From Dehalococcoidia bacterium (GTDB lineage Bacteria; Chloroflexota; Dehalococcoidia; SHYB01), in assembly GCA_965248515.1 (NCBI GenBank), contig CBDFJU010000003.1, forward strand, positions 975,254 to 1,039,253: a DNA stretch of 64,000 bases, in the 5' to 3' direction. The stretch's first letter is position 1. Every line of letters begins with the position of its first letter. The notes under the pieces were generated by a model. The model was not told where the DNA came from and ran no database searches. It saw only the letters and a list, made by a program, of their open reading frames with translations. Below are positions 4,133 to 23,342 of the stretch, piece by piece. Made by a program: the position numbers and the translations under genes.

Positions 4133-4649
4133 AGTACTTGGCCAGCCGGTATACACCTCAACCTCAACGAGTACTGCATGTCGAATTGAATCCGCGGCAT
4201 GGTCTCGATGAATAACTAGTTCACCGGTCATGGTTCTGCGATGACGCATCGAACCGCAGCAACCTGGGCCGGATTGCCGCCCATGGACCACTCGAAGGGG
4301 GAATTCTGGACTCCACCCCGTCTCTCACTCCGAGAGGCCAGAGTGCTCCTCCTCGTTCCAAAAGGCACCTTTATGAACGGGTTGGGAAGTCGCCTCGAAC
4401 TACCACTTTGAGCGACGTCCGTCCTCTGTCCAAGTTGGCGATGCAGCGTACCCCATTTAGAACGGGTTGCATGCCGCCTCTGGTAGACACAGAAGGGGCC
4501 CCGAGCCTGAACGTGCGTGCTACCCCGTTTGAGACGGAGCAGGGCTTCGCGGGGGTGATGCTTGCCTCCCATAATCGCACCGGCGAGTGCCTGTTTGAGT
4601 TCGGTTCGGCAGGCGACGGCGAAGGGTCTACTCTAGAGCAGGTCCGACT

Positions 4650-5282
4650 TTATGGGCAGGCGGGGTCCTTACAGGGCTCTCTCCGGAATGCCACTGCCTT
4701 ACCGGAGAAATTGCTGGACTCAGCGGCTTCGAAGGTCGGGAAACTCTCCATAATGAGCTCTTCGTCGAACCTACTGTCCGTGTTTGGTTGCACTTGGTAT
4801 TTCAAATAGACGGTTGTGGGAGTACTCCGGATACCCAACCCTTCCTCAATACGTGCTACCCCAGCAGTGTCACTTCCAGAGAGAATGAAGAACTTACTCC
4901 TTCCGTTAGGTTGGCCTTCGTAAAGCGGCTTACCCACAACCTCTTTGTCGGCCGCTTCAACAAACAGACCTGACATTGTGGGGAACTCTTGCAGCGTCTT
5001 CCAGTATGTCTCCTGGTGTAGATCCTCCTTCTTCACTAGATTCACCGCCCACCAATAAGTGTCGCGATAATCCCAAGCGTTTCCGAGGTCATCCTTAAAC
5101 CAGACGCCCCATATTGTATCTTGGTGATTGATACTCCCCCGGCTGTCTTCTATGTCCGAATAGGGAGTGGTTCCTTCCTCTACCAAGGAGTCATAATAAG
5201 GCTGGTAGGCCTCCAAGATAGATTCCCGTAGCTCATCAGTGAAATAATCGAGGGGATTGGCGCTGAGAGAATACGTAATCAA
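4650..5282 (-). CDS. Hypothetical protein (low-GC island). Its 5' end abuts the IS3 insertion and the N-terminus is probably lost or displaced.
   Basis: Long open frame with no ATG at its 5' end (first codon TGG in my reading). The frame opens immediately after the IS3 right-end TGA. Confidence 0.4.
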   Translation of the reverse strand: MITYSLSANPLDYFTDELRESILEAYQPYYDSLVEEGTTPYSDIEDSRGSINHQDTIWGVWFKDDLGNAWDYRDTYWWAVNLVKKEDLHQETYWKTLQEFPTMSGLFVEAADKEVVGKPLYEGQPNGRSKFFILSGSDTAGVARIEEGLGIRSTPTTVYLKYQVQPNTDSRFDEELIMESFPTFEAAESSNFSGKAVAFRREPCKDPACP

Positions 5283-5301
5283 TCTCAGGTGGACCCCATC
5301 A

Positions 5302-6237
5302 TCAGGACAGCGGTGAGGCTAAAATAAGAGAGTCTACCGCTGGGGTGTCTCGTAAACCTTCATCCGATGGTAAGGCTTGTGGATGTTCCAGTAAACACCT
5401 TTGTGGGCTCACTGCATGGAACACCTGACCCGGTGACCGATAGCCCAGGGCTTGATGGGGCCGCTCTTGGTTGTAGAAGGCCAGATAAGCCCCAATCCCC
5501 TTTCTGGCCTCAGTCCCATTTTGGTATGCCTTCAGGTACACCTCCTCGTACTTGATGCTGCGCCACAGCCGTTCCACGAAGACGTTGTCCATGCACCGGC
5601 CCCTGCCGTCCATACTCACTTGAACGCCTTGCGCCAGCAGCATGCTGGTGAAGGCCTCGCTGGTGAACTGGCTGCCCTGGTCGGTGTTGAAGATCTGTGG
5701 CCGACCCTTGCTCAAGGCCTCTTCCAGAGCCGCAACACAGAAGTCTACCTCCAGGGTGTTGGGCAGCCGCCAGGCCAGCACGTAGCGGCTGTGCCAGTCC
5801 ATGATGGCCACCAAGTAGAGGAAACCCCGAGCCATGGGTATGTAGGTGATGTCGGTGGCCCACACCTGGTTGACCCGGTTGATCTCCAGCCCCCTGAGCA
5901 AGTACGGATAGACCTTATGCCCTGGGTTTGGCTTGCTGGTGTTGGGACGCCGGTAGATGGCCTCCAGGCCTATCAGCTGCATCAGCCGGCGGACCCGCTT
6001 GCGGTTGACCTGGTGTCCGTGATTTCTGAGCCAGGCAGTCATCCTTCTGGAGCCGTAGAAAGGTGTCTTCAGGTACTGTTGGTCTATGAGGGCCATCAAC
6101 TCCAAGTCCTCGGCGCCGGCCTCGGTTGGCAGGTAGTACAACGAGGAGCGGCTGATACCCAGCAAGGCGCACTGGCGCACCAGAGACAGCTTCGGTTCTT
6201 CTCGGGCAATCATGGCCCGGCGTTGGGACCGGCTCAC
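5302..6237 (-). CDS. IS3-family transposase OrfB (DDE integrase core).
   Basis: ...[33 protein letters not shown]...[11 protein letters not shown]...[14 protein letters not shown]... is a classic IS3/IS150 DDE domain. Confidence 0.85.
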
Positions 6238-6518
6238 AACCCGAAGCTCCGTGACAAAAAATCCCGTTCCACCTTGAGCTGCCCAATCTGTTGGTAGAGC
6301 TGGGCAGTGAGGACCTCTTGGTCCTTCTCCTGGCGTCCAGCACCATTTTCAAAGAGGTGCGGCGCCCCCTGAGTCAAGGCCTTCTTCCAGGCATGGATCT
6401 GGCTCGGGTGGACTTCAAACCGGCTGGCCAGCTCTGCAATGGTGTGCTCCCCCTGGAGCGCGGCCAAAGCCACTTTGGCCTTGAAGACTGGGCTGTGCTT
6501 CTTACGTGTTTGCTTCAT
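6234..6518 (-). CDS. IS3-family transposase OrfA (HTH). Expected to fuse to OrfB by a programmed -1 frameshift.
   Basis: [48 protein letters not shown]...LKVERDFL. Overlaps orfB by 4 nt. Confidence 0.8.
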
Positions 6519-6597
6519 GTCCTGCTCCTTCTTTCCGTCCTATTTTAGGAGCGGGACTCTCTCTTAGCCACCTGTCCGAATTTTGGGGTCCACCTCA

Positions 6598-7504
6598 ATC
6601 CTCTATCAATATTTCGATCACTCACGCCGAAGTCTAAGGAATAATAAGAAGACGGTGGCGGCCAATATATGTAGCCAATGTGAGTCCCCGCGTCGAATAC
6701 GGCGTAGCCCTTTGGAGAGTCTTGTACTGCCGCTCTGATTTCATCCCGTAGCGCCAGATGGGCATAGAAGACGTAGATATCAGGGGAAACGTCGAAACTA
6801 ACCCCCACGTCTATTATCACTTTCTCACCATTGACGAATCCCTCTCTGCCCTCTCCACTCGCATCAAGTCTTAATGCTCTTGTATCCAATATTCCTTTGG
6901 CCGGTAGGTACACTTCAACCACGTCGCCGGGACAAGCATAGATGTACCACTTCTTCGGGCCTTCGATCTTGTAGAGGTATTGGAAAAATGGCGTGAGCCT
7001 CTGCCCTCTGCAGGTATTGGCCCCGTCGAGAACGGCATTGAAATCAACTGGCATCTGGGTGAAGCCACTGAACTCTAGTGTGGAGACAGGATCTGACGGA
7101 GGCGTAGGCGTGGGAGTGGCTGAGGGTGTGGGCACTCGTACGGGCGTGGCTGACGGTGCGGCGGTAGGGAGAGGGATCGGCGTAGGTGCGGGCGACGAAG
7201 TCGCAATCGCAGTTGTTGGCGGCCTCGTAATGAACGTGGGCGAGGGACTTGGTTGCCGAGGCGAGTGCGTGGCCAGCGTCGACGGGGCGTTCGTGGCAGG
7301 AACCGCCTCAGCTTGCGCTGTAGCCGGGAGGGATCGCAACCGGGGTGACGTGTCAGTCACGCCCGGGGTTGGCTCAGCCGTTGCCTGAGGTACCGGCGAG
7401 CTCGCTGCCCTCGGCGCCACCGCACCCCCGTCGGACTCGCCGCTGCACGCGTAGACCGCCAGGCCTGCGAGGAAAACGACGATCAATCCCCACCCGCGTC
7501 GCAT
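6598..7504 (-). CDS. Secreted (possibly lipo-) protein with a long Pro/Thr/Ser/Ala linker and a C-terminal globular domain. Its 3' end is interrupted by the IS3 element.
   Basis: Signal peptide MRRGWGLIVVFLAGLAVYAC, ~150 aa PT-rich linker, then a domain. The listed ORF (6545-7504) runs 53 nt into the IS. Low GC. Confidence 0.5.
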
Positions 7505-14018: not shown

Positions 14019-15545
14019 CTATCCATCTCCAACACCTTTGGTCTCTGGCGGGGGTTCCCGGCGCTCCAACTTCCACGTGGCGACACCCGCGTGGGCGTCC
14101 TCTCCAGCCCTATGGATGCGGTAGGGGTCGATCACACGGCCCTTCATCCTGCCCAGCGCCTGACCGAAACGAGTTCGAGCAGCAAGGTCGTCACGTCCTT
14201 GCCAGAGCTCGAGGAGCAGTTCCCGACGGGTGACGATGCCGAACAAGTCTCTCGCGGGGATCTCGGTATCGCCGAACTCTTCCCACCACGCCGTGCAGAA
14301 CTCGCGCCACGGCTCGATCTCGGCTTCGGCGGCCTCGTAGACCCGATCCACGTTGCCGAGGAAGCCGCCGACTCCGACCACTTCGAGGATGCCGCCCATG
14401 ACCCTGGCCCACTTCTCGAAGCTTCCCAGGGACCGTCGGCCCGCTGGCTGGCCCGCTGCGAACCAGGCTCTGATCAGAGTAAGCGCCGCCCAGATCAAAT
14501 CGCCGCGGTGATCCAGGGCCCAAGCGCGAAGGTCCGGGTGCTTGAAGTCCTCCCGCTCCCACGGCTTTTCCATCGAGGGGTCTAGGCGAATCGCGATTGT
14601 GCGCCGGGCAACCTCTACCGATAGAGAAGGGTTGTTGGCCGTGGCGATCCATATCGCGCCGTTGGGTAGCGTGACGGTACGGCTGGCCCCAAGAAGCCGA
14701 TCCTCCCAGAGGGAGGCGGTCAACGCAGCAGAGAGAGCACCTGAGTCCAGGCCCCGCCGGACATTGTCGATCAGGATGAACTGAGGACCCTGCAGCAGTT
14801 TGGACGTGATCCTCTTTCGTGTCTCGTCCTCATCCCGGGCTTCAGTCATGACGGGGAGATTGCCACCTGTCGCCGGGATCGTCAGCACGTCGGCCAGTAG
14901 TCCTTTCCCACTCCCGGGAGTGGCCGACTCGATGAGGTGCAAAGGGACGAGGTCTATCAACGTCCTCACAAAGGGCAAGAGGAGCAAGGAAACAGCGTGG
15001 GCCCGGTCAGCGTCGCTGGCGAAGGGGAAGTCGCCCAAGAGGTCATCCATGATGAGCCGGAGCGCCGCAGCGATGTCGTCTTGGTCTGGCTCGTCGGGGA
15101 CGTCGGGGACCTGCACCCAGGTGAGCGGGTCGAGATAAAAACTCGTGCCAGGGTCGTAGCCGGGCCGGAGCGTGAGGTCGCCGTTGGGAGCGAATACTGG
15201 AGCCCCGCTGACGCCTCGGAGCCGCGGCACCGGTTTGACCTTTCTCACAAGCATGTCGTCGAGCACGTCGTTCGGGGGTCGAGCCGGCACCAGGCCTCCT
15301 TGTCGGGTCCACTTCATGAAGTCGGCAATCTTGTCGAGGTGGCTCTTCAGGATGACCTTCTTGACCTCTCGCATTCTGGTGTGGTCTCCATCACCGGCGC
15401 GTGTCAGGTCGACCAATAGCTCCCCGTGTCGGAAGAGCGTCGGCGGATCGTTGGTCTCTTGAACTGTAAGCCAGGTAACGGAAGCGAGGTCGCGCAGGAA
15501 CTCGCCGGTAATCTCGATCTGCCTTCGAGGCGGAGGGGTCGTCAT
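14019..15545 (-). CDS. P-loop NTPase of the phage/plasmid primase C-terminal (P4/D5/VirE-like, SF3 helicase-type) family.
   Basis: Walker A ESATPGSGKG, Walker B-like FILIDNV, N-terminal ~180 aa non-P-loop domain. RBS GAGGAGGACC. Confidence 0.6.
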   Translation of the reverse strand: MTTPPPRRQIEITGEFLRDLASVTWLTVQETNDPPTLFRHGELLVDLTRAGDGDHTRMREVKKVILKSHLDKIADFMKWTRQGGLVPARPPNDVLDDMLVRKVKPVPRLRGVSGAPVFAPNGDLTLRPGYDPGTSFYLDPLTWVQVPDVPDEPDQDDIAAALRLIMDDLLGDFPFASDADRAHAVSLLLLPFVRTLIDLVPLHLIESATPGSGKGLLADVLTIPATGGNLPVMTEARDEDETRKRITSKLLQGPQFILIDNVRRGLDSGALSAALTASLWEDRLLGASRTVTLPNGAIWIATANNPSLSVEVARRTIAIRLDPSMEKPWEREDFKHPDLRAWALDHRGDLIWAALTLIRAWFAAGQPAGRRSLGSFEKWARVMGGILEVVGVGGFLGNVDRVYEAAEAEIEPWREFCTAWWEEFGDTEIPARDLFGIVTRRELLLELWQGRDDLAARTRFGQALGRMKGRVIDPYRIHRAGEDAHAGVATWKLERREPPPETKGVGDG

Positions 15546-15560
15546 CGCTGGTCCTCCTCG

Positions 15561-15863
15561 TCATGGTTGATGGGTTCGCCTTCTCTTGGCTTGCCGTTGC
15601 CGGATGTCGGATTCCTCTTCGTGCTCCCGTCGGCTGGCCGCCTTCAGGGCCAGATTGACGGCCCTGCGAAGGCGCCCAATAGGGTCCTCGACCTCGATAT
15701 GCTCCAGCGAGACCTCCGGCTGCTTGTCTTGCCCATCACGACGGGGCTTCGAATCGTGGTCCATACACGAATTTTCGCAGAAGCGATGTTTGTACAAATC
15801 CCACGTCTGAACCTGTTGGGACTCCGAATGTCGAGACTCGCGCGGTTTCCTCGCAGTCGCCAT
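15561..15863 (-). CDS. Small basic hypothetical protein, co-oriented and 13 nt upstream of the primase-like gene.
   Basis: 100 aa, Arg/Lys/Glu-rich. Operon-like spacing. Confidence 0.35.
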   Translation of the reverse strand: MATARKPRESRHSESQQVQTWDLYKHRFCENSCMDHDSKPRRDGQDKQPEVSLEHIEVEDPIGRLRRAVNLALKAASRREHEEESDIRQRQAKRRRTHQP

Positions 15864-15935
15864 CAGCCCCTGTTAGAATCCGACGCATCCGGGCTAAGGC
15901 GTTTGCACAACCCGGTGTCAAGGGAGCTTGGGAAA

Positions 15936-16865
15936 ATGGGAAGCCGTCAGTCGATTACGCCGCAACAGCGCCTAGAGGTTGAGGAGTCGCTTCGGTTTGC
16001 CGGGTCCGTCAAAGCCGTGGCACGCAAGACTGGCCTGAGCTTGTCGTCGGTCTACAACATCAGGAGGACGATGAGGAGCGAGTCCAGCCCGGCCTTCGAA
16101 GAACACCGCCAAGGGATCGAAGCAAGAGCTCTGTCGGTGACAGAATCGCTGGCCTCATTCCCGCCCACTCCAGGAAGACTGTTATCCACTGACCGCTGGG
16201 GGAATACACATCGGTGGAAGGCCCAGGCGGCGATCAGCACTGTCCAAGGCGACGCCGATGGCTTCACGGCGTTGGTTCAGCATCTCCGGCCCCTTAAGTT
16301 CGAGTCTTCCTGGGATTCGTTCTGTCGAGGGTTGAAGGATTACCAGGAAGAGGCAGGAGAGCTAGAAGCCGGGGTCCAGGAAAAGGTAAACGGACTCGGT
16401 ATCGAAAGCCTGAGCCAAGGGGCCGTGGTCGGCCTGTTCCGTATCGCAGCGGACCAAGCCTGTTTCGACTCCGAGAGCTACGGTGGCGACACAGACGACG
16501 CGATGGGGGAGTTCCCTTACTTCTGGGAGAGGCCAAGGGCCGTCAGCGAGGACGGTGCCACAATCATCTACCAGATAGGTCGGCTAAAGGGCGCACAACC
16601 CGTGGAAAGGCCAACTTCAGCTTTCACGTTGTGGATTGGCGAGCATCAAGCAGGTCGAGCCCATGGAGACCAACAGGCCAGGGAAGCCGTCAAGAAGCTG
16701 GGCGACGCGGCTGAGGCGCTGATCGCCGACAACACTGGCGATGAGGTCGCTGACAGATACTTCGATCTGTTGAAGGGACGTGACCGGCTTAGCCAACTGT
16801 TGGGGCCATTCAAGGTCAAGAAGTGGGCCGCCGATGGCCGTTGCGAGTTGTGTCCGAGCAGCTGA
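15936..16865 (+). CDS. HTH-domain protein (resolvase-type HTH_7/HTH_23 N-terminus) with a C-terminal domain of unknown function.
   Basis: ITPQQRLEVEESLRFAGSVKAVARKTGLSLSSVYNIRR. Divergent from the primase operon. Confidence 0.5.
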   Translation: MGSRQSITPQQRLEVEESLRFAGSVKAVARKTGLSLSSVYNIRRTMRSESSPAFEEHRQGIEARALSVTESLASFPPTPGRLLSTDRWGNTHRWKAQAAISTVQGDADGFTALVQHLRPLKFESSWDSFCRGLKDYQEEAGELEAGVQEKVNGLGIESLSQGAVVGLFRIAADQACFDSESYGGDTDDAMGEFPYFWERPRAVSEDGATIIYQIGRLKGAQPVERPTSAFTLWIGEHQAGRAHGDQQAREAVKKLGDAAEALIADNTGDEVADRYFDLLKGRDRLSQLLGPFKVKKWAADGRCELCPSS

Positions 16866-16986: not shown

Positions 16987-17844
16987 GTGAGTCTGATGCC
17001 GAAATCTTTGACGGCGGTCACTTTTGACGATTTCGTGACCAACGTCGATGGCACCAATGGCCACCGGCGCTTCGACCTATCGGACTACGAGTTCGTCACC
17101 CCAGGCGGGATGGTACTGCCCGCCTTAGCCATTCGCCAAGCTTGCTCGTCCGGCACCACTCCCGTGCTCACTGTCCCAAACGCCAACATGCGGTCGTACC
17201 TCGCCCGAGCCGGATTTCTTAAGCACCTAAGCGATAGAGCCCAGATTGAACCGCCGCACACATCGAGTGAGGACCTTCCCTTTGATGTTCGCCGGGGCCA
17301 GAACCCGCTCTTACTCGAGATCACAGTGCAAACCGAGGCCGGCGACCTTCCTGAAATAATTGACAGAGTGATATGGGTTCTTCGTCGACGCATGAGCTAT
17401 CGAAAGTCTGACGCTTTTGACATAGGCATCGTGATCTCGGAGATTTGGCAAAACGCGTTCGACCACACTAATGGTCCGGTCACGACAATCGCGGCGATGC
17501 AAGTCTACGGCTCGCCGGGGAACGGTCGTCTAGAGATGGCGATCGGTGACGATGGGGACGGTGTGTTAAGCAGTCTCAGAAGGAATCCGACTCTGCCCCG
17601 CTTCGCCACCGACACGAAAGCGATTCGAGATGCCATCAAGCTGAACGTGTCAGAGCACGACGATCGGACGCGAGGCCATGGCCTCGCGCTGTTGGTCGAC
17701 AAAGTGTTCTCCCATGACGGTGCGGTTACCATACGCTCCGGGCGTGGGAAAGTGCACATCCGGATGGATAAGGGGCAGGGTTGGGCTTATCAGGTTCCTC
17801 ACCTTAGCGGCACCCAAGTCGTGGTTAATTTACCCACAGAATAG
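16987..17844 (+). CDS. GHKL-superfamily ATPase (HATPase_c, anti-sigma-factor/RsbW-like Ser kinase fold) with an N-terminal ~130 aa sensor-like domain.
   Basis: N-box-like IVISEIWQNAFDHT, G1 AIGDDGDGV, G2 GHGLALLVDKVF. A sigma70-like promoter lies upstream (TTGCAA-17-TAGTAT). Confidence 0.65.
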   Translation: MSLMPKSLTAVTFDDFVTNVDGTNGHRRFDLSDYEFVTPGGMVLPALAIRQACSSGTTPVLTVPNANMRSYLARAGFLKHLSDRAQIEPPHTSSEDLPFDVRRGQNPLLLEITVQTEAGDLPEIIDRVIWVLRRRMSYRKSDAFDIGIVISEIWQNAFDHTNGPVTTIAAMQVYGSPGNGRLEMAIGDDGDGVLSSLRRNPTLPRFATDTKAIRDAIKLNVSEHDDRTRGHGLALLVDKVFSHDGAVTIRSGRGKVHIRMDKGQGWAYQVPHLSGTQVVVNLPTE

Positions 17845-17861
17845 CGTCAAGGAGGAGCAAT

Positions 17862-18410
17862 ATGCCTGTAGCCGTCGGACCGAAGTTCCGACTCGCGGAG
17901 TACGGTCGGCAACTGTGGACCCGAGAGAGGGCCAGAGAGATCCGAGGTGAACTTGAAGCCCTGCTTCAGGCCGTTGAATCCGGAACAGTCGTCGTTTTGG
18001 ATTGCACTGATGTCGAAGTGTTTGACTATTCATTTGCGGCCGAATTGTTCGGTGTGACTCTCTTGAAACTACCCATTGAGTATCCGGACCGTTATCTGAT
18101 AATCGCGGGTCTCACTCCTTATACAAGAGAGAACCTCCATGCAGCGTTGGAAGCGGGAGGGGTGATGGCACTTGAGCGGAAGTCCTCGAAGGTCGAACTC
18201 CTAGGCAAGTTCTCCCCAAGCGACGAGGAGACTCTCGCTACGCTCCGCAAGTCTCGCCAGTCCCTAAGCGCGGCTGACGTGGCAAGGAAACTAAATATCA
18301 AACTGACCGCGTCGAACGAGCGCCTCGTAAAGTTGGCGCGAGCTGGCCTGGTTCGCCGCGAACGAGCCCTGGAAGGCCGAGCTCAGCAGCTCTACGCTGC
18401 AGTCCCCTGA
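17862..18410 (+). CDS. STAS-like (DUF4325-type) domain fused to a C-terminal winged HTH.
   Basis: VVVLDCTDVEVFDYSFAAELFGV (STAS-like) and LSAADVARKLNIKLTASNERLVKLARAGLVRRE (wHTH). RBS AAGGAGGAG. Confidence 0.6.
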   Translation: MPVAVGPKFRLAEYGRQLWTRERAREIRGELEALLQAVESGTVVVLDCTDVEVFDYSFAAELFGVTLLKLPIEYPDRYLIIAGLTPYTRENLHAALEAGGVMALERKSSKVELLGKFSPSDEETLATLRKSRQSLSAADVARKLNIKLTASNERLVKLARAGLVRRERALEGRAQQLYAAVP

Positions 18411-18433
18411 GCATTTCCGAGAGGCAGGCCCCC

Positions 18434-18461
18434 TTGACTCTATCAGCGAGAAATGAGTCAA
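18434..18461. promoter_or_regulatory. Perfect 7 bp inverted repeat TTGACTC-N14-GAGTCAA overlapping the predicted promoter of the Ubl/E2/JAB/E1 operon. Candidate operator.
   Basis: Read directly from the sequence. The 5' half is also a -35-like TTGACT. Confidence 0.45.
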
Positions 18462-18524
18462 TATCTTCAATGAGGCCAGTGCGTCTAATGCGCGATGGTT
18501 CTCAATCCGTTGAGGAGTAAAGTA

Positions 18525-18758
18525 ATGCCAGATCAAGGACCAAAGTACCATCTGAACATCGAAGGCACCCTATACGAATGGCCCGAAGGTACGATCACCG
18601 TCCCCGAGATTCGTGAGCTCGGCAGCTTGCCGGCAGACCTTCCGGTAATCGAGATCGACCTTCAGACCAACGAGGAGCGGACGCTGGCTGAGGACGAAAT
18701 CGTCGAACTGAAACCGGGCAAGGGCTTTTCCAAAAAAGTCGGTTGGAAACGTGGATGA
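18525..18758 (+). CDS. Ubiquitin-like beta-grasp protein (Multiubiq/BilA-like) ending in Gly.
   Basis: 77 aa MPDQGPKYHLNIEGTLYEWPEGTITVPEIRELG...KKVGWKRG*. C-terminal Gly. GAGGAG RBS. Its stop overlaps the next start (ATGA). Confidence 0.6.
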   Translation: MPDQGPKYHLNIEGTLYEWPEGTITVPEIRELGSLPADLPVIEIDLQTNEERTLAEDEIVELKPGKGFSKKVGWKRG

Positions 18759-19147
18759 GTGCTCGAATTGCTGATGAGCTTCGGCTGCTCAAGAGCTGGT
18801 ATACGCATCTAGAATACTTAGAGGACGGACATTGGGTTCGGATCCAGGGTTATCCGGTCCCTGACTCGATATGGGCAGTCAATCTAGTCGAGGTCTGCTT
18901 CCAGATCCCAGAAGCTTTACCGGGCCAAGGCCCCTACGGATTCTATGCGCGTCCCGAAATGAGGCTAAGAACCGGAAGCCCGCCGCCTAATAACTACAAG
19001 TACCCCGTTCCAACACCGTTTGGGGATGACTGGGGCAAATTTTCTTGGCAGCTGGAGCCGTGGCGGCCTGGAGCCAAGCCATCTGAGGGCAGCAACATAC
19101 TCGACTTTGCACGGTCGTTCTATGACCGCTTTCGTGAGGGGGTATAG
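18755..19147 (+). CDS. Prokaryotic E2-like (UBC-fold) protein (BilB-like).
   Basis: Operon position between the Ubl and JAB genes. Single conserved Cys (NLVEVCFQIPEALPGQGPYGFYARP). ~130 aa. Confidence 0.5.
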   Translation: MSARIADELRLLKSWYTHLEYLEDGHWVRIQGYPVPDSIWAVNLVEVCFQIPEALPGQGPYGFYARPEMRLRTGSPPPNNYKYPVPTPFGDDWGKFSWQLEPWRPGAKPSEGSNILDFARSFYDRFREGV

Positions 19148-19495
19148 ATGGCGGTAGCCGTCCGGTTCCCGACGCCCTTGTTTGATCGTGTGTGGGATCA
19201 CCTACTCCTCTCCGACACGGAGGAGGCGGCATTCCTCATGGCTGATTATCGCCTCAATGATCAGGGGGGTATATTTGTCGTGTCCGATTTGTATCTAATC
19301 GGACCTGACGACTTTACGTTCCAGTCGAGTTTTCATCTAAGCCTCGCGGACGAAACACGGGTCGCTGTAATCAAGTGGGCGTGGCAACTGGGAGGGTCTC
19401 TGATTGAAGTTCATGCTCATCGGGGGCCGCAGCAAGCCATGTTCTCACATAGCGATATGTATGGCTGTCGATGTCCAGCGATTATGTCCGCCTAA
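19148..19495 (+). pseudogene. JAB/MPN (JAMM) domain protein, N-terminal part (BilC-like), interrupted by IS insertion.
   Basis: JAMM-like motif E-x-HAH-x8-S-HS-D (LIEVHAHRGPQQAMFSHSD). Ends at a TAA that lies inside the IS target duplication. Confidence 0.6.
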
Positions 19496-19496
19496 G

Positions 19497-21062
19497 TGGT
19501 CAGGGAAAATGTCCATCTAGGCCGCTGTCATACCATCGGACTGTGATACGCGGGACCTGCCCCTGGTGCGCATCATGGGCGGGCTCTTGGCTTCGGCGTA
19601 CTTGCGGACCGTGTTCCTGTGGATGCCCAACTCCCTGGCGATTGCCCGAATGGCGAGGCCCCGAAGCTTAGCCTGCTGCACGGCCTTCCACCGGACCCTC
19701 TGTCGCGGCGTGGGTTTCCTGCGTGGCGATGCCGGAGGCTTGCAAACTCTGCCGCCGCCGTTCAATGTGGCGCTGTCGGCCTCGATGGCGTCGAGGGATG
19801 CCAAGCTCTCCTTGGAGTGGCTGCCCACGCCGTTGACCCTACGCTCAAGGCCGGGGCCATATCGGAGAGGACCATTGGAGGCACGGAGAACTCCAGGGCG
19901 CGGCGGCGCCTCCTGTGTGGGGATCGTGCGTCCCCGGTACTGCACGAGGAGCTGACCGTCCAGGCCCTCATGGACCTCCAGCTGCGCTCCGGCGTAGCTA
20001 GGCCGCTCCTTACCAGGCAGCAGCTGCAAGGTACGCCAGTTGTACTTGACGGTGTTGTCCCTGGCCACCTTGCGGCGGTGCTTGAAGCAGAGTATCTGGT
20101 CCAGGGACACCGATGACTCCATAGAGCGGTAAGCAACGCTTGAGTGCTCTGCCGGAACCCCGAACTTCTCGTTGAAGCGCGGCAGGAAGCGGTGCAGGAC
20201 TTCATTGGCCTCGTCGATGGTGGTGACGCCCGCCAAGCGCAGCTCGGTCACCAGCCGGTCCTGGAATGTCCCCGCCGTCCGCTCGACCCGGCCCTTCGCC
20301 TGCGGTGACCTGGCGAATATCTGGCGTATCCCCAGCTCCTCCATGGCGCGGGCGAACTGGGTTGGCCCGGCCGGCTTCTGGCGAGGCTCTCCAGTATGCT
20401 TGAAGACCGCGTGTCGGTCGCTGTAGACGGCCAGCGGTATCCCGCATTGCCGGATCAACCCCTCCATGAGAAGGAAGTAGCCGCGGGTGTCCTCCTCCTG
20501 GCTGAACAGAGCGTCAGGCACAGTGCCGGTGGCGTCGTCCACGGCCAACAGCAGGACGAACCGGGGTCCTTGTTCCCCCAGCCACCGATGGTGGCTCCCA
20601 TCTATCTGCAGCAGCATCCCTTCTTGGGCCATGCGTTTGCGCCGGACACGGTGTCTGGGCGGCCGGCGGCGGCGGGGGCTGTCCACGCCGGCGCTGACCA
20701 GGATGCGGCGCACCGTAGAGCGGCTCAGGTCGATCCCCTCCCGTTCCATCAACAACTCGGTCAGATGCGTATGGTTCGTTCCAGCGTAGCGAGTGCGGGC
20801 CAGCTGCACCACGTAAGTCATCTTGGTCTCCGTCGTGGTGTTGGCCGGTCGGCGGCCACGATTCCCGTGGGCGAGTGCGGCGGCGCCCTCCTTCCTCTAG
20901 GCCGCCAGAATACGCCTCATGTGGCGTTCGCTCACTCCCAGGACCTCGGCCGCCTGACATACCGGCACCTGATCTGCCAGAACGCTGTTGAGCACCTGAA
21001 GTCTCGTCTGCTCCTTCTGCGTCAATGTCACTCCTTCCATGGGATGACATTTTCGCTGACCA
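19497..21062 (-). mobile_element. IS481/ISNCY-like insertion sequence (~1.57 kb) with ~17 bp inverted repeats, inserted in the JAB gene.
   Basis: Ends TGGTCAGGGAAAATGTC... and ...GACATTTTCGCTGACCA. Flanking taag|IS|(g)ttag looks like a 4-5 bp duplication with one mismatch. Confidence 0.7.
19517..21040 (-). pseudogene. DDE transposase (IS481/ISNCY-like) with an in-frame TAG (minus strand, 20899-20897) where the family consensus has Tyr.
   Basis: N-terminus MEGVTLTQKEQTRLQVLNSVLADQVPVCQAAEVLGVSERHMRRILAA*RKEGAAALAHGNRGRRP..., then DDE core LLQIDGSHHRW...LLLAVDDATG...AVYSDRHAVF. Confidence 0.65.
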
Positions 21063-21063
21063 G

Positions 21064-21309
21064 TTAGCTACTGACATAATCGTAGAACAACGACAGTATG
21101 GCCTCCAAGAATTTGTACCTCACGCCCGGTGGCAGCTCGGTGGGCGTCCGTATGCTGCCCTGGTCGTAGCCGAGGATTCGTACGATGGTCTCGCCTGGGT
21201 TGATGAATCGGGAAATCCTCAGGCAATCGAGATCATCATGATCGACGACAAGGTCCTAGATGCCACGGGGCTCACTTTCACAGCGCTGAAGAAGCGTCGC
21301 TATGAGTAG
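21064..21309 (+). pseudogene. JAB/MPN domain protein, C-terminal part, displaced by the IS. Overlaps the E1 start.
   Basis: In frame with the N-terminal part once the IS and one duplication copy are removed (…PAIMSA-L-ATDIIVEQRQYGLQEF...KKRRYE*). Its stop overlaps the E1 ATG. Confidence 0.55.
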
Positions 21310-22157
21310 CGGTGACCGTTATGGCAGACAAATCGCTCTCTTCGGGCGCGAGGGTCAAGAGCGCCTCGAGCGTGTAGGAGTCATGATCGTAGGGCTCGGT
21401 GGTCTCGGATCTCATATCGCTCAGCAACTATCGTTTCTTGGGGTACAGCGATATGTGCTTATTGACCACGATACCGTCACCACGTCAAATCTAAATCGGC
21501 TCATCGGCGCCACTGATGCGGACGCGGACCTCATGACTCCGAAAGTTGAAGTTAGTCGCCGCCTAATCGAAGCTGTTCAACGGGATTCTCAAGTCACGAT
21601 CATCAGCGAGGAGCTGAACAAAGGATTGGTCAGTGCACAACGCGCCGTTCAAGCATCGGACGTTGTTTTTGGCTGTGTTGACGATGACCTCGTCCGACTG
21701 CACCTGACAGAGCTGGCGTCAATTCATGGCAAGCCGCTCCTCGACTCAGCAACTGACGTGGGAGCGAACGGGACCTCTCTTTGGTACGGAGGGCGGGTAG
21801 TCTTCGCTGCTGACGGGAAGCGCTGCCTTTCGTGCCTTGGACTCCTCGATCAACAGCTGATGGCCCGGTCAAGCATGACATCCGAACAGAAGGCGATCGA
21901 CGACAGCATTTACGGTGTTCCCACCGACGCGCTTGAAGGGACAGGCCCTTCTGTTGTCTCGATCAATGGCCGTCATCGCCTCCATCGCAGTCACCGAGTT
22001 CGCGGTTTGGGCGACTGGTCTCAGGCGCCCTTGGCCTCACTCTATTTATCGCGCCGACCTCGGAATTGTGACAAAGAGCATGGACGCGCCCGCTGAGGAC
22101 TGCTTTTACTGTAAGACACTTTGGGGCACCGAAGCCGACGATAAAAAGTCCAACTAG
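21302..22157 (+). pseudogene. ThiF/MoeB-type E1-like activating enzyme (BilD-like) with an apparent frameshift near 21985.
   Basis: DRYGRQIALFGREGQERLERVGVMIVGLGGLGSHIAQQLSFLGV...NLNRL, first CxxC (CLSCLG). After ...GPSVVSING the conserved continuation VIASIAVTEFAVWATG...CFYC... is in the +1 frame. Confidence 0.7.
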
Positions 22158-22310
22158 TCACGATCGATGAGATGCTAACTCCCGTTCCAGCACGAAGCGG
22201 AACTGGGGTTTTGAGAAACCGCGCTCACAAGACCTGTCAAGTATCATTGGCACACGAATCGCCAATCCCCTTGCTATAATCCGCACACTCCGTGGACGCC
22301 GCGAGACCCA

Positions 22311-23342
22311 ATGCCCAACGCCACTGTCGCCGTATGCTGGCCGATAGCCGACGATCTCATCGAACGGCTCCAGGCCTTCTCGCCAGATGTCCACGTCGTC
22401 AAGGCCGACGAGCTCATCCAGCGCGAGAACGAGTTGCTGGTCAGCGATCCTGGCGGCGCCGAGCGGGGTGAGGTCTCGAGCCGGCTCGACGCCGTTCTTC
22501 GCGACGTCGACGTCCTTCTCACCGGTGGGTTGACCGCGGACAACTTCCCCGCACGCACGCCGAACCTGAAATGGATCCAGGGAATCGGCGCCGGGATGGA
22601 CCGTATCCTCAACAACAAGGGCCTTCGCGAGGAGGTCGTTCTCACCAACGCGCGCGGCATGATAGCGCGCCCCATCGGCGAATGGGTTATCGGCGCAATC
22701 CTGGCGTTCGCCAAGCGCATGCCGACGTGGGCCGAACGCAAGCGCGAGCACGACTACACGCGCATGGGGCTGACGACGACCAGTGTTCAGGGCAAGACGG
22801 TCGGCATCCTCGGCTTCGGCAATATCGGCTCCGAGATCGGCCGTATCGCCCGCGTGCTGGACATGCGTGTCCTCGCCACGAAGAGGTCGGAGCGCGGCGG
22901 GCGCGGCGACGAAGCTCACGCCGACGTCGTGTACCCCATGTCCGAGACCGACGCCGTCATCGAGGCGAGCGACTTCCTCGCCATCGCGCTGCCCCTCACC
23001 GCGGAGACACATCACTGCGTCGACCGGCGGCGGATCGGGCTGATGAAACCCAGCGCCTATCTGGTGAACGTCGGCCGCGGCCCGATCGTCGACCAGCCGG
23101 CGCTGATCGATGCTCTCCGGAATGGGCGCATCGCGGGCGCGGCGTTGGACGTCTTCGACCCCGAGCCCTTGCCCAAGGAGAGCCCGCTCTGGGACCTGGA
23201 CAACGTTATCTTCTCGCCCCACGTGTCGGGCCTCGTCGACGACTATCAACAAAGGGTTGTCAGGCTGTTCGAGGACAACATGCGTCGCTACCTCGCTGGG
23301 GAAGGGCTTCGTAACGTGGTCGACAAGGAAGCAGGCTACTGA
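22311..23342 (+). CDS. D-isomer-specific 2-hydroxyacid dehydrogenase family (PGDH/GHPR-like).
   Basis: GxGxxG NAD site GILGFGNIGSEIG, catalytic R...E...H block (VGRGPIVDQ...LDVF). Confidence 0.85.
   Translation: MPNATVAVCWPIADDLIERLQAFSPDVHVVKADELIQRENELLVSDPGGAERGEVSSRLDAVLRDVDVLLTGGLTADNFPARTPNLKWIQGIGAGMDRILNNKGLREEVVLTNARGMIARPIGEWVIGAILAFAKRMPTWAERKREHDYTRMGLTTTSVQGKTVGILGFGNIGSEIGRIARVLDMRVLATKRSERGGRGDEAHADVVYPMSETDAVIEASDFLAIALPLTAETHHCVDRRRIGLMKPSAYLVNVGRGPIVDQPALIDALRNGRIAGAALDVFDPEPLPKESPLWDLDNVIFSPHVSGLVDDYQQRVVRLFEDNMRRYLAGEGLRNVVDKEAGY

What the first reader, a model, noticed from the sequence alone, without database searches (positions are those of the whole stretch)
16987..22157. 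Complete but inactivated bacterial ubiquitin-like conjugation operon (Ubl-E2-JAB-E1, BilABCD order) with an uncharacterised GHKL-ATPase / STAS(DUF4325)-wHTH pair in front
Six co-oriented genes encode, in order: a GHKL ATPase, a STAS-like plus winged-HTH protein, a 77 aa beta-grasp protein ending in Gly, a small UBC-fold-like protein, a JAMM protein and a ThiF-type E1 with CxxC pairs. The last four match the Multiubiq/Prok-E2/Prok-JAB/E1 signature. This is the architecture of the Bil anti-phage ubiquitin-like system. Here the JAB gene is split by an IS and the E1 gene is frameshifted, so the locus looks like a recently decayed defence system. The ATPase plus STAS-wHTH pair directly upstream is not part of the described Bil core and may be a new accessory or regulatory module.
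Basis: partly seen in the sequence, partly recalled or inferred. Interest (0 to 1): 0.8.

Follow-up and report, generated by a model that had tools for sequence, protein, structure and literature searches.

The report
Decayed Bub-like ubiquitination operon with CapK/CapS

Summary
The six co-oriented genes are real, and so are both lesions. A 1632-bp ISNCY element with a 5-bp target duplication splits the JAB gene. One extra base in GGCC (21968-21971) frameshifts the E1 gene.

The Bil label does not hold. The E2 belongs to the Prok-E2_E/BubB lineage, and its only solved structural match is Citrobacter BubB. It has Ser101 where other E2s carry the catalytic Cys. The E1 is a 284-aa single ThiF domain whose best PDB matches are BubCD and MoeB. 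It has no Cys in the crossover loop and an invariant Tyr204 there. This fits Bub (6E) oxyester-type chemistry, not BilB/BilD.

The cassette also departs from described Bub types. All four genes are unfused, there is no DUF6527/BubE, and the Type I Asp/Ser/His triad reads Tyr/Ser/Gln. About 83 related loci, mostly from soil metagenomes, share this layout.

The ATPase plus STAS-wHTH pair is CapK/CapS (Chambers et al., EMBO J 2026). That module is an ssDNA-activated kinase and a phospho-regulated repressor, found upstream of Bub, CBASS and other immune operons. Here CapK lacks the N-terminal HTH.

Verdict: a known regulator in front of a new variant of a known conjugation system, in a decayed copy. 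Interest is moderate to low.

The parts
16996..17844 (+). capK-like gene: STAS-like N-terminal half plus GHKL Ser kinase domain, with no N-terminal HTH. Appears intact. The mechanical ORF starts at GTG 16987; the database protein P0014 starts at ATG 16996.
   Evidence: HATPase_c_2 and HATPase_c. Family alignment with N-box SEIxQNxFDH (N156), DxGxG and TRGxGL all present. The family profile hits RsbW and a SpoIIAA-like STAS protein in the PDB. It scores 65.7 bits against E. roggenkampii CapK residues 111-329.
17862..18410 (+). capS-like gene: STAS domain with predicted phospho-acceptor Ser57, plus a C-terminal winged HTH repressor domain. Appears intact.
   Evidence: DUF4325 above cut-off plus wHTH families. 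The family profile matches E. roggenkampii CapS (PDB 9Z71) over its full length at E 2.6e-8, with DySF aligned to DSSF, which contains S54. A homologue follows capK directly in 18 of 18 related loci.
18434..18461 (.). Perfect inverted repeat TTGACTC-N14-GAGTCAA in the capS-Ubl intergenic region, overlapping a -35-like TTGACT. Candidate CapS operator and promoter (inference only).
   Evidence: Related capKS loci carry a different conserved palindrome, T(A/T)CAG-N8-CTG(T/A)A, at the same place.
18525..18758 (+). Ubl (BubA-like): 77 aa, a single beta-grasp domain, ending exactly at Arg-Gly. Intact.
   Evidence: Multi_ubiq 24.6 bits. 53 of 62 distinct clade members end ...RG-stop. RBS GAGGAG lies upstream.
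18755..19147 (+). E2 (BubB-like): 130 aa, with Ser101 at the catalytic position (numbering of the 134-aa ORF that starts at 18743). Intact.
   Evidence: Prok-E2_E 30.7 bits. AlphaFold model pLDDT 82.5, with BubB 9eae_C as the only real Foldseek hit. Ser aligns with the Ser of the WSRH motif in canonical Prok-E2_E proteins. The FSW Ser is conserved in 65 of 68 clade members.
19148..19464 (+). JAB/JAMM peptidase gene, 5' part (codons 1-105 plus 2 nt). Contains E25, H89, H91, S100 and D103.
19465..21096 (-). ISNCY-family insertion sequence, 1632 bp, flanked by a 5-bp target-site duplication TATGG (19460-19464 and 21097-21101). Its transposase reading frame (21040-19520) carries an in-frame TAG at 20897-20899.
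   Evidence: Inverted repeats. Sequence and frames. NF033594 ISNCY_2 409.6 bits. Single copy in the window.
21102..21309 (+). JAB/JAMM peptidase gene, 3' part. It is in frame with the 5' part once the IS and one TSD copy are removed.
21302..22157 (+). E1 (ThiF/MoeB/BubD-like adenylating enzyme), disrupted by one extra base in GGCC at 21968-21971. The 5' frame runs 21302-21969 and the 3' frame 21971-22157. Repaired length is 284 aa, with CxxC at 175-178 and 267-270 and Tyr204 in the crossover loop.

Best explanation
The locus is a capK-capS regulatory module followed by a four-gene ubiquitin-like conjugation cassette of the Bub (6E) lineage. The cassette has since been inactivated.

How the intact ancestor most likely worked:
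- A CapS dimer sits on an operator at the promoter between capS and the Ubl gene and represses the cassette.
- Single-stranded DNA produced by DNA damage or phage infection activates the CapK GHKL kinase.
- CapK phosphorylates the CapS STAS domain at Ser57. The dimer dissociates and the cassette is transcribed.
- These steps are shown for homologues in PMC13373217 and are inferred here.
- The 77-aa Ubl already ends in Gly, so it needs no C-terminal processing.
- A Zn-binding, single-domain ThiF-type E1 adenylates the Ubl.
- The Ubl then passes through oxyester intermediates, from crossover-loop Tyr204 of the E1 to Ser101 of the BubB-like E2, and from there to a target amine.
- The JAMM peptidase removes or edits conjugates.
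- These steps are inferred from Citrobacter Bub biochemistry.
- The likely role is anti-phage or stress defence, judged from the regulators and from the mobile-island context.

In this window the JAB gene is split by an ISNCY element. The E1 gene has a +1 frameshift that removes its last ~60 residues, including the second CxxC. Conjugation should therefore be dead. capK, capS, the Ubl gene and the E2 gene still look intact.
For: Gene content and lesions.

CapK/CapS identity:
- Literature.
- CapS profile against PDB 9Z71: E 2.6e-8 over the full length, with the phospho-Ser aligned.
- CapK profile against E. roggenkampii CapK: 65.7 bits, with the N-box Asn aligned.
- The pair is adjacent in 18 of 18 related genomic loci.
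- Those loci lie directly upstream of and co-oriented with Bub operons (L014, L015, L016, L018, L024, L028, L030), CBASS (L020, L022, L027) and a TIR/Piwi pair (L025).

Bub lineage:
- Prok-E2_E hit.
- The E2 profile's top PDB hit is BubB.
- The E2 model's only confident structural match is BubB.
- Ser101 aligns to the Bub catalytic Ser.
- The E1's best PDB hits are BubCD and MoeB. Tyr204 is invariant and lies within 2 alignment positions of BubCD Y370.
- JAB is homologous to the Prok-JAB domains of Bub JAB-E1 fusions.

Clade conservation:
- 7 loci found by exact-protein look-up plus 76 metagenome loci keep the order Ubl-E2-JAB-E1, unfused.
- DNA-damage-type regulators sit upstream, in the slot CapK/CapS occupies in the window: XRE with or without M78, an XRE-M78 fusion, or LexA.
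Against: - No biochemistry exists for this clade.
- The helper residues that accompany the catalytic Ser in described Bub E2s are absent. These are His at +2 plus Asp in Type I, and Lys plus His in Type II. Here the +2 position is Q/A/S/T and Tyr replaces Asp. The E2 could therefore be catalytically different, or inert.
- DUF6527/BubE, present in every catalogued Bub operon, is missing.
- The Tyr204 to Y370 correspondence is off by two positions in a gapped loop alignment.
- CapK lacks the HTH domain of the described family, and the TTAA-type operators reported for CapS are not present.
- None of the 83 other loci of this cassette clade carries CapK/CapS. The pairing seen here is a one-off within that clade.
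- The frameshift could be an assembly error.
Confidence: 0.85

Rival explanations
1. It is a Bil (BilABCD) anti-phage system. In that case Ubl conjugation would run through Cys thioesters on a BilD-type E1 and a BilB-type E2.
For: The gene order Ubl-E2-JAB-E1 is the same as bilABCD, and all four genes are separate, as in Bil. The Ubl is a single beta-grasp ending near a conserved Gly, as in Type II Bil.
Against: - The E1 is 284 aa with one adenylation domain. It has no IAD and no CYS domain.
- No BilD appears among its best PDB hits, while BubCD and MoeB lead.
- The E2 profile scores -0.9 bits against E. aridi BilB.
- The only Cys in the E2 (C52) is not conserved in the clade.
- The E2 fold matches BubB only.
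Confidence: 0.03
2. Only the JAB gene is truly broken. The E1 frameshift is a sequencing or assembly error. Because the Ubl already ends in Gly, the locus may still conjugate Ubl, but without deconjugation.
For: The frameshift is a single extra base in a short G2C2 run. No other defect is visible in 284 codons. The Ubl needs no processing. The window comes from a 1.06-Mb contig of unknown sequencing technology.
Against: The adjacent gene carries an independent and unambiguous lesion. The IS transposase itself has an in-frame stop. The island also holds a truncated primase/helicase gene. All of this is consistent with general decay. GGCC is not a long homopolymer.
Confidence: 0.2
3. The cassette is not a protein-conjugation or defence system. 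Instead it would be a sulfur-carrier or cofactor-type ThiS/MoaD-ThiF/MoeB pathway, or a non-catalytic E2-variant scaffold. The upstream CapK/CapS would then be unrelated flanking genes.
For: - The E1 profile scores as well against MoeB as against BubCD, and the E1 keeps the MoeB-like 4-Cys Zn site.
- The E2 lacks both Cys and the His/Asp helpers.
- Other members of the cassette clade do not carry CapK/CapS.
Against: - A JAMM peptidase with an intact motif and a UBC-fold protein with an invariant Ser at the active-site position are conserved in strict order in about 83 loci.
- Regulators typical of immune operons sit upstream: XRE/M78, LexA and CapK/CapS.
- No sulfurtransferase or cofactor-synthesis genes accompany the cassette.
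- Homologous Ser-type Bub systems do conjugate proteins.
- CapK/CapS pairs lie directly upstream of E1-containing Bub operons in at least 7 of 18 genomic loci.
Confidence: 0.05

Closest known systems
CapK/CapS, 'controller of associated pathways' kinase and STAS repressor (Chambers et al., EMBO J 2026, PMC13373217; PDB 9Z71-9Z73)
   Same: - Two adjacent genes. The first encodes a STAS plus GHKL kinase and the second a STAS plus wHTH protein with a conserved Ser.
- They lie directly upstream of and co-oriented with Bub, CBASS and other immune operons.
- Profile-level homology to both reference proteins.
- The kinase N-box Asn and the CapS phospho-Ser are conserved.
   Different: - The window's CapK (282-285 aa against 368) lacks the N-terminal HTH domain. 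In that respect it resembles VapK. The paper found that deleting the HTH had no phenotype.
- No TTAA-type palindromes are present. The window has TTGACTC-N14-GAGTCAA, and related HTH-less loci have T(A/T)CAG-N8-CTG(T/A)A.
- Identity to the E. roggenkampii proteins is low; the match appears only at profile level.
Type I Bub (6E.1) operon, e.g. Citrobacter BubAB/BubCD/BubE (Ye et al. 2024 preprint; PDB 9EA4, 9EAE)
   Same: - E2 of the Prok-E2_E/BubB fold, with Ser at the catalytic position.
- Cys-less single-domain E1 with a crossover-loop Tyr.
- JAMM peptidase.
- Multi_ubiq-type Ubl ending in Gly.
- Association with DNA-damage-responsive regulators.
   Different: - JAB and E1 are separate genes here. 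In every Table S1 row I read (one part of seven), JAB is fused to E1.
- There is no DUF6527/BubE serine protease.
- The E2 helper residues differ: Asp299 becomes Tyr65 and His335 becomes Gln103.
- The E1 keeps MoeB-like CxxC pairs.
- The Ubl needs no cleavage from a fusion.
Type II Bil (6C/CEHH) BilABCD, e.g. Ensifer aridi (Chambers et al. 2023/2024)
   Same: Four separate genes in the order Ubl-E2-JAB-E1, and a single beta-grasp Ubl.
   Different: BilD is a large IAD-AAD-CYS E1 with a catalytic Cys, and BilB has a catalytic Cys plus His. Neither feature is present here.
MoeB/ThiF with MoaD/ThiS sulfur-carrier systems
   Same: The E1 has the same size, a single adenylation domain and a 4-Cys Zn site, and scores equally well against MoeB. 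The substrate is a small beta-grasp protein ending in Gly.
   Different: An E2-fold protein and a JAMM peptidase are conserved in the operon. No sulfur-transfer or cofactor genes are present. The context is an immune-type regulator and a mobile island.

Membership tests
Bil (BilABCD, Types I and II) | Four separate genes in the order Ubl (BilA), E2 (BilB), JAB (BilC), E1 (BilD) | tested here: met
   ORF order and family assignments.
Bil (BilABCD, Types I and II) | [quoted passage not shown] | tested here: not met
   The repaired E1 is 284 aa with one ThiF domain. There is no Cys between C178 and G215. The best PDB hits are BubCD and MoeB.
Bil (BilABCD, Types I and II) | E2 with a conserved catalytic Cys and an adjacent His | tested here: not met
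   The only Cys (C52) varies in the clade (C/A/S/V). There is no invariant His. The profile scores -0.9 bits against E. aridi BilB.
Bub (6E/DUF6527, Types I and II) | E2 of the Prok-E2_E/BubB fold with an invariant Ser in place of the catalytic Cys | tested here: met
   Prok-E2_E above cut-off. Foldseek against BubB: probability 1.0, TM 0.63. Ser101 aligns to the Ser of WSRH. Conserved in 65 of 68 clade members.
Bub (6E/DUF6527, Types I and II) | Helper residues next to the Ser: His at +2 plus Asp (Type I), or Lys plus His (Type II) | tested here: not met
   The +2 position is Q/A/S/T and never His. Tyr replaces Asp in most members. The Lys at -2 is not conserved.
Bub (6E/DUF6527, Types I and II) | E1 adenylation domain without a catalytic Cys, with a conserved crossover-loop Tyr (BubCD Y370) | tested here: inconclusive
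   The loop has no Cys, and Tyr204 (IYGV) is invariant. Tyr204 lies 2 alignment positions from the BubCD Tyr in a gapped loop. Catalysis was not tested.
Bub (6E/DUF6527, Types I and II) | Gene fusions: JAB-E1 (Type I) or E2-E1 (Type II) | tested here: not met
   All four genes are separate in the window and in about 83 related loci. Table S1, in the part read, lists the DUB as fused to E1.
Bub (6E/DUF6527, Types I and II) | DUF6527 (BubE) serine protease gene in the operon | tested here: not met
   The gene after the E1 is a convergent/unrelated 2-hydroxyacid dehydrogenase. tblastn with a DUF6527 protein finds nothing in the window or in the clade loci, while the positive control in L015 gives E 7.6e-9. 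No gene recurs downstream in the clade. This rests on a single-query search, so very divergent homologues could be missed.
CapK/CapS | CapS: N-terminal STAS with a conserved phospho-acceptor Ser, plus a C-terminal wHTH | tested here: met
   DUF4325 and wHTH Pfam hits. Profile against PDB 9Z71: E 2.6e-8 over the full length, with S57 aligned to the S54 motif. The Ser is invariant in 14 homologues.
CapK/CapS | CapK: STAS plus GHKL kinase with the catalytic N-box Asn | tested here: met
   HATPase_c_2. PDB hits to RsbW and a SpoIIAA-like protein. 65.7 bits against E. roggenkampii CapK, with N156 aligned to N218.
CapK/CapS | CapK N-terminal HTH domain | tested here: not met
   The protein is 282-285 aa against 368 for the reference. 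The homology starts at about CapK residue 111, which corresponds to profile position 48.
CapK/CapS | capK immediately followed by capS, upstream of and co-oriented with an immune operon | tested here: met
   The window and 18 of 18 related genomic loci. The downstream systems are Bub, CBASS and a TIR/Piwi pair.
CapK/CapS | ssDNA-activated phosphorylation of CapS, causing loss of dimerisation and DNA binding | not testable with these tools
   Shown for the E. roggenkampii proteins in PMC13373217.
ISNCY insertion sequence | ISNCY-type DDE transposase, terminal inverted repeats and a target-site duplication | tested here: met
   NF033594 409.6 bits against a cut-off of 250. Inverted repeats and the TATGG duplication.

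The most novel reading that the evidence does not exclude
The cassette may represent an undescribed third architecture of Bub-type, Cys-free ubiquitin-like conjugation.
- It is fully unfused (Ubl, E2, JAB and E1 are separate genes).
- It has no BubE.
- Its Ubl is already mature.
- Its E2 active site is built from Ser with Tyr/Gln instead of Ser with Asp/His.

The clade is widespread in soil bacteria. The published Bub catalogue would have missed it, because that catalogue was seeded on DUF6527-containing operons. If the clade is active, it would show that oxyester-based conjugation needs neither BubE nor the His/Asp helpers. It could also be the unfused form from which the fused Bub types arose.
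Probability: 0.45. Interest if true: 0.5.

Novelty: new variant of a known kind. Interest (0 to 1): 0.3.

Why it matters
**This locus.** It adds little by itself, because it is a pseudogenised copy.

**The clade.**
- About 83 loci share an unfused, BubE-less, Ser-type conjugation cassette. This extends the Bub family beyond the two published architectures.
- The cassette offers a minimal four-protein system for testing how Cys-free (oxyester) Ubl transfer works without the Asp/His helpers.

**The regulator.**
- CapK/CapS is a swappable regulator that can replace XRE/M78 or LexA-type control in front of the same cassette.
- An HTH-less CapK subfamily, with its own operator sequence, controls Bub, CBASS and TIR/Piwi systems in Acidobacteriota and other soil phyla.

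Tried and rejected
- **Bil assignment.** Rejected on E1 architecture and E2 chemistry.
- **PADLOC.** Only Cap2-type 'E1-E2' models hit the E1, and a weak DrmA stretch hit the ATPase. Nothing hit the Ubl, E2 or JAB.
- **Pfam and NCBIfam on the JAB.** No hits, either for the fragments or for the repaired protein. Homology had to be shown by hhalign.
- **Exact look-up of the window's own E2 (P0001).** This found no contig, and cluster look-up gave no accession or name. The host organism stays unidentified. No tRNA is present in the window.
- **First genome scan with the full ATPase alignment.** A narrower alignment worked.
- **Idea that the 145-aa and ~258-aa genes upstream in some clade loci correspond to the window's STAS and ATPase pair, or that the 258-aa protein is an Ntn hydrolase.** They have no similarity to the window and no Pfam hits.
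- **TTAA-type CapS operators.** Not found in the window's intergenic regions.
- **Phage collection.** No relative of the E2. The plasmid collection gave only two distant hits.
- **sigma-70 consensus scan.** It gave nothing meaningful in the intergenic regions.

Full report
**Observation**

| Gene | Coordinates | Pfam result |
|---|---|---|
| GHKL protein | 16987/16996-17844 | HATPase_c_2 E 8e-6, 26.3 bits, just under the 27.4 cut-off |
| STAS-wHTH protein | 17862-18410 | DUF4325 27.4 bits (cut-off 23), plus several wHTH families |
| Ubl, 77 aa | 18525-18758 | Multi_ubiq 24.6 bits (cut-off 24.5); ends ...KRG-stop |
| E2 | 18755-19147 | Prok-E2_E 30.7 bits (cut-off 25) |
| E1 | 21302-22157 | ThiF E 1e-33 |

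A GAGGAG ribosome-binding site precedes the Ubl gene. The Ubl stop overlaps the E2 start as ATGA.

The two JAB fragments give no family hit on their own.

**The two lesions**

*IS insertion in JAB.*
- An insertion sequence occupies 19465-21096 (1632 bp).
- It has imperfect terminal inverted repeats of about 50 bp and a TATGG direct repeat on each side.
- Its - strand transposase scores 409.6 bits on the NCBIfam ISNCY_2 model, against a cut-off of 250.
- Removing the element and one TATGG copy restores a 174-aa reading frame.
- That frame aligns without a gap across the junction to intact homologues. It keeps the JAMM residues E25, H89, H91, S100 and D103.
- A profile of this family matches the Prok-JAB domains of JAB-E1 fusion proteins (hhalign 96.5%, E 7e-10).

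*Frameshift in E1.*
- The gene changes frame at 21968-21971.
- Homologues read VVS[ILV]N[GA][VI][VI]ASL across this point. The window has one base too many in GGCC.
- The repaired protein is 284 aa, scores 123.6 bits on ThiF and has two CxxC pairs.
- As it stands, the gene loses its last ~60 residues.

The IS junctions are unambiguous. I cannot exclude that the single-base insertion is an assembly error.

**Which conjugation system it is**

The gene order is that of bilABCD, but the proteins are not Bil proteins. [quoted passage not shown] Bil E2s have a catalytic Cys with a neighbouring His (papers read).

*E1.*
- It is a single ThiF domain.
- Its best solved relatives are Citrobacter BubCD (phmmer E 9e-18, covering the crossover loop) and E. 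coli MoeB.
- The crossover loop has no Cys. It has a Tyr (Tyr204, motif IYGV) that is invariant in the family.
- In a gapped pairwise alignment, Tyr204 lies two positions from the catalytic Tyr370 of BubCD.

*E2.*
- The E2 profile's top PDB hit is BubB, though weakly (E 0.23).
- An AlphaFold2 model (pLDDT 82.5, pTM 0.78) has BubB (9eae_C) as its only confident structural match. That match has probability 1.0 and TM 0.63 over 126 columns. Every other hit is at E > 1.
- The E2 profile scores -0.9 bits against E. aridi BilB. It scores 18-21 bits against canonical Prok-E2_E proteins.
- In those alignments Ser101 (motif WGKFSWQ) falls on the Ser of the WSRH motif. That Ser is the Bub catalytic Ser.
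- Across 68 distinct clade sequences the Ser is kept in 65. The only Cys of the window's E2 (C52) is not conserved.

The chemistry expected is therefore the Bub-type oxyester relay described for Citrobacter, not thioesters.

**How it differs from described Bub operons**

Described Bub types:
- Published Type I Bub operons have a JAB-E1 fusion and often a Ubl-E2 fusion.
- Type II operons have an E2-E1 fusion.
- Both types carry a DUF6527 serine protease (BubE).
- The published catalogue was seeded on DUF6527-containing operons.

This clade:
- All four genes are separate.
- No DUF6527 gene is present. The next gene after the E1 is a 2-hydroxyacid dehydrogenase.
- tblastn with a DUF6527 protein finds nothing in the window or in the clade loci. 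The same query detects the DUF6527 gene of L015 at E 7.6e-9.
- No gene recurs downstream of the E1 in the clade.
- The helper residues of the Type I E2 active site are replaced. Asp299 becomes Tyr65, and His335 becomes Gln103. Across the clade the +2 position is Q/A/S/T and never His.
- The Ubl ends exactly at Arg-Gly in 53 of 62 distinct sequences. It needs no maturation, so the JAB is presumably a deconjugase only.

Size and consistency of the clade:
- The protein search gave 13 clusters.
- Seven loci came from exact look-ups, and 76 loci came from a metagenome scan, mostly soil.
- Every locus with enough sequence keeps the order Ubl-E2-JAB-E1.

**The upstream pair is CapK/CapS**

*My own survey.*
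- The ATPase family (25 clusters) has an N-terminal STAS-like half and a C-terminal GHKL domain with all catalytic motifs.
- A genome scan gave 18 loci from Acidobacteriota, Planctomycetota, Nitrosospira, Eisenbacteria, Endomicrobiales and others.
- In all 18 the ATPase gene is followed directly by a STAS-wHTH homologue.
- Downstream and co-oriented lie one of these systems:
  - canonical Bub operons, for example L015 (Multi_ubiq, Prok-E2_E at 117 bits, a Prok-JAB-ThiF fusion, DUF6527) and L028;
  - CBASS components (TRIP13-like AAA, SMODS, SAVED) in L022, L027 and L020;
  - a SEC-C/TIR/Piwi set in L025.

*The literature.*
- A search then found that this module was published in 2026 as CapK/CapS (PMC13373217).
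- CapK is an anti-sigma-factor-like kinase activated by ssDNA.
- It phosphorylates a conserved Ser in the STAS domain of the repressor CapS.
- The CapS dimer then dissociates and the downstream immune operon is de-repressed.
- The authors list 443 loci, of which 231 lie upstream of Bub operons.

*Membership tests.*
- The CapS-family profile matches E. roggenkampii CapS (PDB 9Z71) over its full length at E 2.6e-8. The window's Ser57 falls on the DSSF motif that holds Ser54.
- The CapK-family profile scores 65.7 bits against E. roggenkampii CapK residues 111-329. The N-box Asn is aligned (N156 to N218).

*Differences from the described family.*
- The window's CapK lacks the N-terminal HTH (282-285 aa against 368). 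The authors found that domain dispensable.
- The operators differ. The reported sites are TTAA half-sites.
- Related HTH-less loci share T(A/T)CAG-N8-CTG(T/A)A just after capS.
- The window instead has TTGACTC-N14-GAGTCAA at 18434-18461.

**Regulator swapping**

None of the other ~83 loci of the cassette clade has CapK/CapS. They carry one of the following upstream:
- a divergent XRE gene with or without Peptidase_M78;
- an XRE-M78 fusion;
- in one case, a LexA homologue.

The window's combination is therefore a modular swap of one DNA-damage-responsive controller for another. [quoted passage not shown]

**Context**

The locus sits at the end of a stretch of lower G+C content from about 2 to 22 kb (0.55-0.62, against 0.63-0.68 outside). 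That stretch also holds:
- an IS3-type transposase at 5302-6237;
- a C-terminal fragment of a phage-type primase/helicase at 14019-15545 (phrog_10537, E 8e-88, positions 741-1224 of 1229).

The ISNCY transposase itself has an in-frame TAG. The picture is of a decaying mobile island.

**Verdict**

It is an inactivated Ubl conjugation operon, but of the Bub lineage and not Bil. The 'uncharacterised' pair is the now-described CapK/CapS regulator.
- What is not in the literature I could read is the cassette architecture itself: unfused, without BubE, and with a Tyr/Ser/Gln E2 site.
- I file it as a new variant of a known kind.
- Interest is moderate to low for this decayed copy, and somewhat higher for the clade.

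Noticed in passing
window 20897-20899 (- strand codon 48 of the IS transposase, frame 21040-19520): The ISNCY transposase has an in-frame TAG between its N-terminal HTH and the catalytic core. The element that broke the JAB gene is probably itself defective. It is single-copy in the window.
   Followed up: partly
window 14019-15545 (- strand): A 508-aa ORF matches only the C-terminal ~480 residues of ~1230-aa phage primase/helicase families (phrog_10537, E 8e-88). It is a truncated replication gene of a mobile element. It overlaps, in antisense, the start of the long ORF 15426-16865, whose first ~170 codons are probably spurious.
   Followed up: partly
window ~2000-22157: A stretch of lower G+C content (0.55-0.62 against 0.63-0.68 outside) that contains an IS3-type transposase (5302-6237, - strand) and many ORFs with no family hit. 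It looks like a decaying genomic island, and the CapKS/Bub-like locus forms its right end. No tRNA gene lies anywhere in the window.
   Followed up: partly
L014-L031, 15-35 nt downstream of the capS stop (e.g. L016 4027-4052, L015 ~2660-2685): All 16 HTH-less capKS loci examined share a palindrome T(A/T)CAG-N8-CTG(T/A)A, preceded by an oligo-T run. It differs from the TTAA half-sites published for E. roggenkampii CapS and looks like LexA-box half-sites in swapped order. It is a likely subfamily-specific CapS operator.
   Followed up: partly
L025 11623-15554: capK-capS lies directly upstream of a SEC-C-motif protein, a TIR-domain protein (524 aa) and a Piwi-domain protein (526 aa). This is a SPARTA-like short-Argonaute system. 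No pAgo/SPARTA category appears in the paper's text or in the one of four parts of Dataset EV2 that I read.
   Followed up: no
L001 8070-9280; L003 8054-9270; L004 1354-2660; also L036, L039, L041, L045: Two conserved genes with no Pfam hit (~145 aa and ~250-260 aa) sit upstream of the divergent XRE regulator in seven loci of the cassette clade. The larger one begins (M/V)TLIVAHVS...ASDS, which reminded me of N-terminal-nucleophile hydrolases, but no tool supported that.
   Followed up: partly
L108 (plasmid CP013100.1, Ca. Tenderia electrophaga) 4344-6791: A 347-aa 'hypothetical protein' has the E2 domain at its C-terminus (34.6% identity to the window's E2). It is followed by separate 177-aa and 295-aa genes. 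This is apparently a Ubl-E2 fusion with unfused JAB and E1, an architecture intermediate between Type I Bub and the window's clade. It lies on a mobilizable plasmid.
   Followed up: no
L058 4335-4937: A LexA homologue (LexA_DNA_bind plus Peptidase_S24) lies directly upstream of and divergent from the Ubl-E2-JAB-E1 cassette. This is a third kind of DNA-damage-responsive controller for the same cassette.
   Followed up: no
window 22158-23252 (- strand): A 364-aa mechanical ORF lies antisense to the well-supported 2-hydroxyacid dehydrogenase gene at 22311-23342 (2-Hacid_dh_C, E 2e-56). It is almost certainly not a gene.
   Followed up: partly
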